64,000 nucleotides of DNA, taken from a phage. The notes below the pieces were generated by a model. That model searched no databases. It was not told where the DNA came from and saw only the letters and a program-made list of their open reading frames with translations. The stretch is taken from NCBI GenBank assembly GCA_014435945.1, contig GCA_014435945.1_4088.1; one strand, given 5' to 3'. Shown piece after piece: positions 6,075-6,578 of this stretch; positions within the stretch are counted from its first letter, which is position 1, and the number at the start of each line of letters is the position of its first letter. Made by a program: the position numbers and the translations under genes.

Positions 6075-6578
6075 ATGAAATCTATTATTGCCAATAACGA
6101 AATCACCGCAAAAACTGTTCGTCTAGTTACGGAAGGTAAAAGTGAAGTCATGGCAATCTCTAAAGCACTTGCTTTAGCAGAAAATGAAGGTCTGGATTTG
6201 GTGGTTATTGGAGCAGGTGATGAACCTGCTGTTAAAATCACTAATCTGAACAAATTCAAATACGAATTGAAACAGGCTGAAAAAGCCTCTCTTAAGAAAC
6301 AGCGTCAAAACACTGTTAGTACTAAAGAGATTCAATTCAACTTCGGGACTCAAGAGCATGATTTGCTTATTAAAGCGAAAAGTGCAGGTAAGTTCCTAGA
6401 AGAAGGTAAGCAAGTACACATTGTAATGAAAACCACAGGTCGCGGAACAAACGCAACTGTTATCCAAAACAACGTTGATGCAATGGAGTCATTCGTTAGT
6501 CGTTTGGGTAACGTAACGTATGTCCAGAAAGTTGAATTCCAGGGTAAGAAGGTAACCTGTACTGTCAAAGTAAAATAA
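6075..6578 (+). CDS. translation initiation factor IF-3-like protein
   Basis: Colinear similarity to bacterial IF3 over N- and C-domains (VRLV..G, GLDLV.I....[23 protein letters not shown]....GRG). Confidence 0.75.

What the first reader, a model, noticed from the sequence alone, without database searches (positions are those of the whole stretch)
6075..6578. Phage-encoded translation initiation factor IF3 homolog
The 167-aa protein aligns colinearly with bacterial IF3 across both the N-terminal and C-terminal domains (for example [17 protein letters not shown] versus GVDLVEISPNAEPPVCRI, and [13 protein letters not shown] versus KEIKFRPGTDEGD). It sits in the early region between dda and the topoisomerase genes. 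A phage IF3 could bias initiation-codon or mRNA selection during takeover.
Basis: partly seen in the sequence, partly recalled or inferred. Interest (0 to 1): 0.6.

Follow-up and report, generated by a model that had tools for sequence, protein, structure and literature searches.

The report
Jumbo-phage copy of initiation factor IF3
This E. coli jumbo phage really does carry its own complete copy of the bacterial translation initiation factor IF3, which was already annotated and published for this phage group but never tested, and this lineage's copy has lost the arginine that normally touches the start codon.

Summary
ORF 6075-6578 (+) encodes a 167-aa, two-domain IF3. Both Pfam domains and the TIGR00168 infC equivalog score above their curated cut-offs. 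The AlphaFold model (pLDDT 84) matches only IF3 structures in the PDB. The gene is under strong purifying selection (dN/dS 0.07-0.19).

It is not new. The window is about 99% identical to E. coli jumbo phages fEgEco12, BF17 and WPEC3 (RaK2/121Q group), whose records already call this protein IF3. PHROG 9787 holds the family, and papers from 2017 to 2025 mention it. I found no experimental study.

What I add:
1. The RaK2-like clade has remodelled the conserved RFRGR loop to KTTGR. None of 14 clade members has R/K at E. coli position 131, against 85% of other viral and 98% of cellular IF3s, and all 14 have a 2-3-residue insertion. All other near-universal residues and the charge profile are kept.
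2. A conserved sigma70-type promoter, a GGAG ribosome-binding site and an ATG start precede the gene.
3. Phage IF3 sits in a same-strand cassette, IF3-(bS21)-ClpS-(KTSC), never seen next to cellular infC.

Most likely it is a working, early-expressed IF3 acting on host 30S subunits, possibly with altered proofreading.

The parts
6002..6030 (+). Sigma70-type promoter, TTGACA-17 nt-TATAAT, a 12/12 match to consensus. The -35 hexamer overlaps the TGA stop codon of the upstream 64-aa ORF.
   Evidence: the only 12/12 site in 3500-9500; 22 sites with <=1 mismatch in the window, all on the + strand, against 1.7 expected. CTTGAC at -35 in 6 of 7 genera-spanning relatives, and a TAnnAT-like -10. Function is inferred, not shown.
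6062..6065 (+). Shine-Dalgarno GGAG, 9 nt upstream of the ATG
   Evidence: Sequence. GGAG is invariant in all 7 aligned phages from four genera.
6075..6578 (+). IF3 homolog CDS, 167 aa, ATG start, TAA stop
   Evidence: 100% identical to proteins annotated 'translation initiation factor IF3' in phages fEgEco12 and WPEC3. dN/dS 0.07 against 121Q and 0.19 against A4.
6093..6287 (+). IF3 N-terminal domain (aa 7-71): a four-stranded sheet plus one helix
   Evidence: Pfam PF05198 aa 7-71. Model strands 14-19, 22-27, 41-46, 52-56 and helix 28-37. Matches 6o6d and 1tif. The tRNA-elbow contact residues R25 and R66 (E. coli numbering) are kept as R16 and K54.
6246..6311 (+). Lys-rich inter-domain linker helix (aa 58-79), 2 residues longer than in E. 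coli
   Evidence: Model helix 58-79. Alignment. Net charge +5 against +6 in E. coli. Y75 of E. coli is kept as Y63.
6318..6569 (+). IF3 C-terminal domain (aa 82-165), beta-alpha-beta-alpha-beta-beta
   Evidence: Pfam PF00707 aa 82-165. Model elements E83-89, H94-109, E113-119, H127-144, E147-156, E159-166. 1tig TM 0.82 at 1.9 A. D106, K110, G132 and R133 (E. coli numbering) are invariant.
6429..6473 (+). Remodelled start-codon-proximal loop. K119-T-T-G-R123 replaces the E. coli 129-RFRGR-133 motif, followed by G124 (E134 in E. coli) and a 2-3-residue insertion at the start of the second C-domain helix.
   Evidence: R/K at position 131 in 0 of 14 RaK2-like clade sequences, 85% of 66 other viral and 98% of 80 cellular IF3s. 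Insertion in 14/14, 1/66 and 0/80. The role of R131 is taken from PMC11775629.
6592..7137 (+). ClpS-like protease-adaptor homolog (181 aa; ClpS core at aa 68-140 with N- and C-terminal extensions), starting 14 nt after the IF3 stop codon
   Evidence: No Pfam hit. PHROG 15940. A profile of 8 orthologs matches E. coli ClpS structures at E=1.2e-9. Found next to IF3 in 14/14 clade loci and 22/66 other viral loci, 0/80 cellular.
7212..7757 (+). KTSC-domain protein (181 aa), the third member of the conserved cassette
   Evidence: Pfam PF13619 E=6e-14. Present in 14/14 clade loci and in relatives down to 38% IF3 identity.
3794..5137 (+). Dda-like SF1 helicase (upstream context)
   Evidence: Pfam AAA_30, PIF1 and UvrD_C_2. 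GenBank annotations.
5221..6005 (+). Two conserved small ORFs of unknown function (5221-5787, PHROG 16501; 5811-6005, PHROG 15132) that always precede IF3 in this lineage
10214..13641 (+). Topoisomerase II large and medium subunits (downstream context)

Best explanation
The gene encodes a functional viral paralogue of bacterial initiation factor IF3. Host RNA polymerase probably transcribes it early, from a consensus sigma70 promoter. It is translated from an ordinary SD-ATG start, so it should escape the AUU-start-codon autoregulation that limits host infC. The protein keeps the IF3 architecture, the near-universal residues and the domain-by-domain charge pattern. It should therefore bind the host 30S subunit at the platform and P-site in the same way as host IF3, and add to or displace the host factor in subunit anti-association and initiation-complex formation. 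In this phage lineage the loop that lies against the start codon (E. coli 129-RFRGR-133) has been rebuilt: there is no basic residue at position 131, Gly or another small residue replaces E134, and there is a 2-3-residue insertion. The phage factor therefore most likely proofreads the codon-anticodon pair differently from host IF3, probably less stringently. It is co-located, and probably co-transcribed, with a ClpS-like adaptor and a KTSC protein. What is shown: homology, fold, selection, loop change, synteny. What is inferred: expression timing, 30S binding, altered fidelity, any link to ClpS or KTSC. My probabilities: true IF3 homolog 0.99; binds host 30S and acts in initiation or subunit cycling about 0.7; altered proofreading about 0.35. 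The overall confidence given (0.55) is for the combined statement that it is a working IF3 acting on host 30S subunits whose specificity is not simply identical to the host factor's.
For: Family and fold. Conservation of N16, R25, D52, K/R66, K72, Y75, K94, E95, D106, K110, F117, G132 and R133 (E. coli numbering). Same pI (9.54) and the same per-domain net charges as E. coli IF3 (NTD -2/-2, linker +5/+6, CTD +5/+4). Purifying selection, dN/dS 0.07 and 0.19. Retained in the same position across Asteriusvirus, Alcyoneusvirus, Eneladusvirus and Mimasvirus, and in metagenomic relatives down to 38% identity. Perfect sigma70 promoter, with the promoter, GGAG and ATG conserved across genera. Loop remodelling specific to the clade. 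R131 contacts start-codon bases, and R131P relaxes discrimination of non-AUG codons, leaderless mRNAs and atypical initiator tRNAs: PMC11775629. Linkage to another 30S platform protein in other phages (bS21 next to IF3 in 26/66 viral loci, 0/80 cellular).
Against: There are no biochemical or genetic data for any phage IF3 in the searchable literature. Nothing in the phage's own genes calls for relaxed fidelity. About 93% of my 111 gene calls and 23 of 23 GenBank-annotated neighbours start with ATG, most with an SD, and the intergenic sigma70-type promoters sit 33-50 nt from the ATG, so the mRNAs are leadered. The phage tRNA with a CAU anticodon is not an initiator. The loop change is a single evolutionary event in one lineage, so the 0/14 count is not 14 independent observations. 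R131P introduces a proline, so its phenotype may not carry over to Thr, Gln or Glu substitutions. Several Arg residues that I recall as important for 30S binding in E. coli (R99, R147) are also not conserved, although these vary in cellular IF3s too. Promoter activity and timing are predictions only.
Confidence: 0.55

Rival explanations
1. Plain dosage supplement. The phage IF3 does exactly what host IF3 does, and the loop changes are functionally neutral. It simply raises the IF3:ribosome ratio so that recycling and initiation keep pace with massive phage protein synthesis after host transcription, and hence host infC mRNA, declines.
For: All near-universal IF3 residues and the charge profile are retained. 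Phage genes use canonical ATG and SD starts. R133 and G132 in the loop are invariant. This is the reading offered in PMC5259590.
Against: Position 131 is R/K in 98% of cellular and 85% of other viral IF3s, but never in this clade. Some clade members have Glu there, and all have an insertion next to it. Under dN/dS of about 0.1, such a consistent change at a codon-contacting residue is unlikely to be neutral.
Confidence: 0.25
2. Competitive inhibitor or decoy. The protein occupies the IF3 site on host 30S subunits but is defective in a later step (codon inspection or release), and so contributes to shut-off of host translation.
For: Loss of R131 and E134 and the loop insertion. Early-type promoter. 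A T7 precedent for phages targeting initiation factors is cited in PMC6375957.
Against: Phage mRNAs need the same 30S subunits, and no feature is visible that would let them bypass a blocked IF3 site: they have ordinary SD-ATG leaders. The gene is conserved with full-length, well-folded domains, including the tRNA-elbow contacts R16 and K54.
Confidence: 0.08
3. Ribosome-pool mobiliser. Its main role is to split or keep apart 70S or hibernating ribosomes in slow-growing hosts, using the anti-association function of the C-domain. Start-codon proofreading is irrelevant and so free to drift.
For: The C-domain residues D106, K110, K112, K116 and R133, and the positive charge, are retained, while the codon-contacting residue is lost. 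Iyer et al. suggest a role in ribosome rescue or in supporting phage translation. The related phage Sharanji is reported to encode an S30EA/HPF-like protein.
Against: The N-domain and linker, which are dispensable for anti-association according to PMC9723500, are as well conserved as the C-domain. No direct evidence.
Confidence: 0.1
4. Decaying or non-ribosomal relic: a captured host gene with no current role in translation.
For: It is only about 31% identical to E. coli IF3 and lacks some E. coli Arg residues.
Against: dN/dS is 0.07-0.19. The gene is intact, in the same position and the same length across at least four genera and many metagenomic relatives. The model is confident. It is not a recent capture: no cellular genome has a copy above 44% local or 36% full-length identity.
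Confidence: 0.02

Closest known systems
Bacterial translation initiation factor IF3 (infC; TIGR00168; Pfam PF05198 + PF00707), e.g. E. coli IF3, PDB 8jsg/5lmn
   Same: Two-domain architecture with a Lys-rich helical linker. Same folds for both domains. The near-universal residues (R25, D52, Y75, K94, D106, K110, G132, R133). Same pI and per-domain charge.
   Different: About 31% identity to E. coli IF3. No N-terminal tail. Linker 2 residues longer. The RFRGR loop is KTTGR, with no basic residue at 131, Gly at 134 and a 2-3-residue insertion. Y70 is Leu. ATG rather than AUU start. Not in the thrS-infC-rpmI-rplT operon.
Annotated IF3 of RaK2-like jumbo phages (PHROG 9787): GAP32_313, CBB_318, 121Q gp47, PBECO4, Sharanji WNN14575.1, fEgEco12 g413
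   Same: The same gene. It is 100% identical to the fEgEco12, BF17 and WPEC3 proteins, 89% to 121Q/PBECO4, 68% to RaK2-type, 50-58% to Eneladus-/Mimasvirus, and in the same genomic position.
   Different: Nothing of substance. This window is another isolate of the same phage species group.
IF3 genes of other phages and huge phages (Al-Shayeb et al. 2020; Vibrio phage 2.275.O; Agrobacterium phage Atu_ph07; IMG/VR contigs)
   Same: Virus-encoded, outside the cellular operon context, often next to ClpS.
   Different: Most keep the canonical F-[RK]-G-R-E loop without an insertion (85% R/K at 131). 26 of 66 have a phage bS21 gene beside IF3, which the RaK2-like clade lacks. They have no KTSC partner.
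E. coli infC135 (R131P) mutant, Mycoplasma IF3 (R131 replaced by P/F/Y), and mitochondrial IF3 (KKGK motif)
   Same: Natural or selected IF3 variants in which the codon-proximal loop lacks the canonical Arg131; they are associated with relaxed start-codon, initiator-tRNA or leaderless-mRNA discrimination (PMC11775629).
   Different: The phage clade has T/S/V/A/Q/E at that position plus an insertion. No matching unusual initiator tRNA, non-AUG usage or leaderless mRNAs were found in the phage. The functional consequence is untested.

Membership tests
Bacterial IF3 (infC) | N-terminal domain matching the IF3_N profile above the curated threshold | tested here: met
   PF05198, 57.6 bits against 26.9, aa 7-71, covering 2-69 of 70 profile positions
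Bacterial IF3 (infC) | C-terminal domain matching the IF3_C profile above the curated threshold | tested here: met
   PF00707, 45.8 bits against 34.8, aa 82-165, covering 2-84 of 86 profile positions
Bacterial IF3 (infC) | Full-length equivalog model (TIGR00168) above its cut-off | tested here: met
   100 bits against 60, aa 6-154
Bacterial IF3 (infC) | Three-dimensional architecture: alpha/beta N-domain, long helical linker, beta-alpha-beta-alpha-beta-beta C-domain | tested here: met
   AlphaFold model pLDDT 84.1. All 22 Foldseek PDB hits with E<=0.001 are IF3. 1tig TM 0.82 at 1.9 A; 6o6d TM 0.82 at 1.9 A.
Bacterial IF3 (infC) | Near-universal residues (E. coli R25, D52, Y75, K94, D106, K110, G132, R133) | tested here: met
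   All are present in the window protein and 79-100% conserved in the clade
Bacterial IF3 (infC) | Conserved 129-RFRGR-133 loop with a basic residue at 131 that contacts the start codon | tested here: not met
   KTTGR in the window. R/K at 131 in 0 of 14 clade members, against 98% of cellular IF3s. A 2-3-residue insertion follows. Some cellular lineages (mycoplasmas) and mitochondrial IF3 also deviate and are still counted as IF3, so this weakens the claim 'canonical fidelity function' rather than family membership.
Bacterial IF3 (infC) | Basic protein with an acidic or neutral N-domain and a basic linker and C-domain | tested here: met
   pI 9.54 for both proteins. Net charges -2, +5, +5 against -2, +6, +4 in E. 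coli.
Bacterial IF3 (infC) | Cellular operon context thrS-infC-rpmI-rplT | tested here: not met
   rpmI/rplT lie within 1.5 kb in 71 of 80 cellular loci and 0 of 80 viral loci. The window neighbours are Dda, ClpS-like and KTSC.
Bacterial IF3 (infC) | Non-canonical (AUU-type) start codon giving IF3 autoregulation, as in E. coli infC (from established knowledge) | tested here: not met
   ATG start preceded by GGAG; ATGAAA is invariant in 7 phages
Bacterial IF3 (infC) | Binds the 30S subunit, prevents 50S joining, proofreads the initiator tRNA and start codon | not testable with these tools
   Needs biochemistry, genetics or cryo-EM. No published data found.
Phage IF3 family PHROG 9787 | Full-length match to the family profile | tested here: met
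   E=2.8e-66, aa 1-167 on 1-167 of 168 profile positions
ClpS adaptor (neighbouring gene 6592-7137) | ClpS core-domain homology | tested here: met
   No Pfam hit for the single sequence, but the ortholog profile matches E. coli and Caulobacter ClpS structures at E=1.2e-9 over aa 68-140. N-degron pocket residues and ClpA binding were not examined.

The most novel reading that the evidence does not exclude
RaK2-like jumbo phages carry a specialised IF3 whose codon-inspecting loop has been deliberately rebuilt (no Arg131, an inserted turn). Once expressed early, it replaces host IF3 on 30S subunits and changes which initiation complexes pass proofreading. It is one part of a widespread, previously undescribed phage 'initiation take-over cassette', IF3-(bS21)-ClpS-(KTSC), that reprogrammes the 30S platform and couples this to adaptor-directed proteolysis.
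Probability: 0.25. Interest if true: 0.7.

Novelty: already known. Interest (0 to 1): 0.35.

Why it matters
The existence of the gene is not news. What remains open is what a virus gains from carrying its own IF3, the factor that decides which start sites are accepted. This lineage offers a natural experiment in an E. coli host, where every IF3 assay already exists (infC mutants, AUU/AUG reporters, reconstituted initiation, cryo-EM of 30S pre-initiation complexes). It is a strongly conserved IF3 that keeps everything except the start-codon-contacting arginine. It is embedded in a cassette that in related phages also holds the ribosomal protein bS21. If the phage factor alters proofreading, that would be a direct demonstration of viral reprogramming of bacterial start-site selection. 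It would also give structure-function information on the RFRGR loop.

Tried and rejected
1. A phage-specific initiator tRNA matched to an altered IF3: rejected. The only CAU-anticodon tRNA in the window (48538-48627) has a paired G1:C72, lacks the three G-C pairs in the anticodon stem, and has a long type-II variable arm.

2. A phage need for non-AUG or leaderless initiation: no support. ATG accounts for 103 of 111 of my crude gene calls (my scoring favours ATG) and 23 of 23 GenBank-annotated starts nearby. Most have an SD motif. Intergenic sigma70-type promoters lie 33-50 nt upstream of the start codons. Annotation cannot reveal AUU or CUG starts, so this is weak negative evidence.

3. Recent capture from the host, or assembly contamination: rejected. 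Identity to E. coli IF3 is 31%. The best cellular matches among 185k species genomes are 30-36% identical over the full length. No rpmI or rplT lies beside any viral copy.

4. Transcriptome or timing data for this phage group: none found. The phAPEC6 and fEgEco12 papers contain none. One literature search was wasted by a loose setting.

5. The CBB supplementary tables confirmed the IF-3 annotation, but my term search for CBB_318 surfaced no promoter-table entry for it: inconclusive.

6. A bS21 gene in RaK2-like isolates: tblastn with the Vibrio-phage bS21 hit only that phage. Sensitivity is low for this short, basic protein, so its absence elsewhere in the genome is not proven.

It was rerun without that row.

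Full report
**1. The observation**

An ATG-to-TAA ORF of 167 codons lies at exactly 6075-6578 on the + strand.

The similarity is far beyond chance:
- Pfam IF3_N: E=1.4e-15, 57.6 bits against a gathering score of 26.9, aa 7-71.
- Pfam IF3_C: E=5.7e-12, 45.8 bits against 34.8, aa 82-165.
- NCBIfam equivalog TIGR00168 (infC): 100 bits against a cut-off of 60.
- phmmer against PDB sequences: E. coli, Thermus and Geobacillus IF3 at E of 1e-15 to 1e-16.

**2. Fold**

An AlphaFold2 model built from 25 homologs is confident (mean pLDDT 84.1, no segment below 50). It shows a four-stranded sheet plus one helix, then a long helix (aa 58-79), then a beta-alpha-beta-alpha-beta-beta domain.

Foldseek against the PDB gives 22 hits with E<=0.001, and every one is a bacterial or mitochondrial IF3. 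The isolated domains superpose at 1.9 A (1tig C-domain TM 0.82; 6o6d N-domain TM 0.82).

**3. Where the window comes from, and prior knowledge**

The region is 98.6-99.0% identical to E. coli jumbo phages EC.P1, fEgEco12, BF17, WPEC3/5, Turkey3 and Ecwhy_1 (350-385 kb). It is about 85% identical to 121Q, PBECO4, phAPEC6, Sharanji and others (Asteriusvirus).

The protein is 100% identical to proteins in fEgEco12 and WPEC3, annotated 'translation initiation factor IF3' and 'translation initiation factor'. It is 89% identical to the 121Q/PBECO4 protein and 68% to the RaK2/Muenster/K64-1 proteins. It is 50-58% identical to those of Yersinia, Serratia, Erwinia, Cronobacter (GAP32), Pectobacterium (CBB) and Xanthomonas jumbo phages.

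The gene is well documented already:
- PHROGs holds the family as phrog_9787, 'translation initiation factor' (E=2.8e-66).
- The GAP32 GenBank record already names it IF-3 with both Pfam domains.
[quoted passage not shown] - Iyer et al. and the Sharanji paper both mention it and say its function is unknown.

I found no experimental study of any phage IF3. The finding is therefore real but already known as an annotation. The biology is open.

**4. The gene is functional, and it is neither a recent capture nor contamination**

- dN/dS is 0.073 against 121Q and 0.187 against phage A4.
- An exhaustive HMMER scan of 1.84 billion representatives finds 4,845 IF3-family hits at E<=0.001 but only 5 at <=1e-30.
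- A scan of one genome from each of 185,579 prokaryotic species finds nothing better than 30-36% full-length identity. Most alignments end at query residue 123-124.
- rpmI or rplT lies within 1.5 kb of IF3 in 71 of 80 cellular loci and in 0 of 80 IMG/VR viral loci.

**5. What is conserved and what is not**

I compared three groups: the RaK2-like clade; 66 other viral IF3s and 80 cellular IF3s retrieved with the same query alignment (A2); and 132 diverse representatives.

The window protein retains the near-universal IF3 positions (E. coli numbering): N16, R25, D52, K/R66, K72, Y75, K94, E95, D106, K110, F117, G121, G132 and R133. Two of the three N-domain residues reported to contact the initiator-tRNA elbow are kept: R25 as R16 and R66 as K54. 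Q33 falls in a gap.

The pI (9.54) and per-domain net charges match E. coli IF3 almost exactly: N-domain -2/-2, linker +5/+6, C-domain +5/+4. The phage protein uses Lys where E. coli uses Arg.

The consistent exception is the loop next to the start codon:
- E. coli 129-RFRGR-133-E134 is K-T-T-G-R-G in the window.
- Position 131 is R/K in 0 of 14 clade sequences (instead T, S, V, Q, I, and even E), against 85% of other viral and 98% of cellular IF3s.
- E134 is replaced by small or hydrophobic residues.
- A 2-3-residue insertion follows in 14 of 14 clade members, against 1 of 66 and 0 of 80.
- Y70 is Leu in the whole clade, but Tyr in all 80 sampled cellular IF3s.
- More distant metagenomic relatives that share the insertion also lack R/K131.

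According to PMC11775629, the RFRGR motif is highly conserved and R131 contacts the +2, +3 and +4 mRNA bases. The R131P mutation promotes initiation from non-AUG codons, from leaderless mRNAs and with initiator tRNAs lacking the 3 G-C pairs. Mycoplasmas, which use such features, have P, F or Y at this position.

One caveat applies: the clade-wide change is a single evolutionary event, not 14 independent ones.

**6. Tests of what an altered IF3 might be for**

- The window's CAU-anticodon tRNA (48538-48627) is not an initiator. G1:C72 is paired, the anticodon stem is GCCGA/UCGGU, and it has a long variable arm.
- Phage genes do not visibly need relaxed start selection. ATG accounts for 103 of 111 of my crude calls, 83 of which have an SD-like motif. 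All 23 GenBank-annotated starts in the homologous fEgEco12 stretch are ATG.
- Intergenic sigma70-type promoters lie 33-50 nt upstream of start codons, so these mRNAs are leadered.

The altered-proofreading idea therefore rests on the protein alone.

**7. Expression signals**

A 12/12 consensus sigma70 promoter (TTGACA-17-TATAAT) lies at 6002-6030, 45 nt before the ATG. Its -35 hexamer overlaps the TGA stop codon of the upstream ORF. The window has 22 sites with <=1 mismatch, all on the + strand, against 1.7 expected.

The CTTGAC -35, a TAnnAT -10, the GGAG and ATGAAA are conserved across four genera. The ATG start means that the AUU-based autoregulation of E. coli infC (established knowledge) cannot operate on this gene. 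Early expression by host RNA polymerase is an inference; no transcriptome exists for this group.

**8. Gene neighbourhood**

The order DHFR, RNase H (or Mom-like), Dda-like helicase, two small ORFs, IF3, ClpS-like, KTSC, structural genes, topoisomerase II is conserved in Asteriusvirus, Alcyoneusvirus, Eneladusvirus and Mimasvirus.

The 181-aa gene 14 nt downstream of IF3 has no Pfam hit on its own. A profile of its orthologs matches ClpS structures at E=1.2e-9 over aa 68-140. The next gene has a KTSC domain.

Relatives at 37-49% IF3 identity keep IF3-ClpS-KTSC. In Vibrio phage 2.275.O (349 kb) and another contig, a ribosomal protein bS21 gene sits immediately after IF3.

Across the 80 IMG/VR loci the arrangements, all on one strand, are:
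- IF3-bS21-ClpS: 18
- IF3-ClpS-KTSC: 14 (the RaK2-like clade)
- IF3-bS21: 6
- IF3-ClpS: 3
- bS21-IF3(-ClpS): 2
- IF3 alone within the 1.5-kb flanks: 37

None of the 80 cellular loci has any of these neighbours.

I found no paper that reports this linkage. Iyer et al. treat IF3/KTSC and ClpS separately. Association with bS21, another protein of the 30S subunit implicated in translation initiation, supports a ribosome-directed role for phage IF3.

**9. Interpretation**

The best-supported reading is a working IF3 paralogue made early in infection that binds host 30S subunits and supplements or displaces host IF3. A lineage-specific rebuild of the codon-proximal loop probably changes proofreading.

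Rivals are:
- a pure dosage supplement;
- a ribosome-pool mobiliser that uses only the anti-association function;
- a competitive inhibitor of host initiation;
- a relic, which the selection data effectively exclude.

All functional statements are inferences. The decisive experiments are standard in E. coli and are listed separately.

**10. Verdict**

It is already known as an annotation, and its function is untested. Interest is modest. It is raised somewhat by the clade-specific loss of Arg131 and by the IF3-(bS21)-ClpS-(KTSC) cassette, neither of which I found described.

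Noticed in passing
window 48538-48627 (+): A 90-nt tRNA with a CAU anticodon and a long type-II variable arm (about 17 nt), a paired G1:C72 and discriminator A73. It is annotated 'tRNA-Met' by ARAGORN and in related phage records. Long-arm tRNAs are normally Leu, Ser or Tyr, so its amino-acid identity and the codon it reads (AUG, or AUA if modified) are unclear. It is not initiator-like.
   Followed up: partly
window 48439-48530 (+): A type-II tRNA called Ser with the unusual anticodon ACT (A at position 34), sitting 8 nt upstream of the CAU tRNA. An unmodified A34 is rare in bacterial tRNAs.
   Followed up: no
window 49805-50038 (+): Three tandem tRNA-Thr(TGT) genes 7 nt apart. 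The second and third are identical over the aligned 73 nt; the first differs at several stem positions.
   Followed up: no
window-wide; perfect sites at 6002, 24202, 38313, 45516, 45661 (+): 22 sigma70-consensus promoter matches with <=1 mismatch (5 perfect), all on the + strand, against 1.7 expected from shuffles. They are concentrated in the stretch of small hypothetical genes, which fits a host-RNA-polymerase-dependent early region.
   Followed up: partly
L022-L073 (IMG/VR contigs); L172 = Vibrio phage 2.275.O MG592671, 4001-5804; L174: In many unrelated viral contigs the IF3 gene is followed on the same strand by a phage ribosomal protein bS21 gene and then a ClpS gene (18 loci IF3-bS21-ClpS; 26 of 66 with bS21). 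This never occurs next to cellular infC. I found no published description of the linkage.
   Followed up: partly
window 6592-7137 (+): The ClpS-like protein has a 67-aa N-terminal and a roughly 40-aa C-terminal extension around the ClpS core. It is too divergent for Pfam's ClpS model. Whether it still binds N-degrons or ClpA is unknown.
   Followed up: partly
window 7747-9318 (+): The 523-aa 'virion structural protein' (PHROG 18596) gives a weak, sub-threshold hit to the MA3 domain, an eIF4G/PDCD4-type domain (E=0.008, 16.6 bits against a cut-off of 23.2). This is probably chance.
   Followed up: no
protein P0122: A 1,611-aa protein in the representative library matches the query's aa 79-119 (the start of the IF3 C-domain) in 14 separate stretches. 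It is an apparent tandem array of IF3-C-like segments, of unknown origin.
   Followed up: no
proteins P0005 and P0022: Close homologs are labelled 'IF-3 [Escherichia coli]' and '[Salmonella enterica serovar Braenderup]' but lie on contigs of 358,987 and 371,314 bp. These are very likely jumbo-phage genomes deposited within bacterial assemblies.
   Followed up: no
window about 60060-61560 (fEgEco12 g518-g519; L168 44861-46349): An HslV-like protease subunit gene lies directly upstream of a phage RNA polymerase sigma-factor gene, according to the near-identical annotated record.
   Followed up: no
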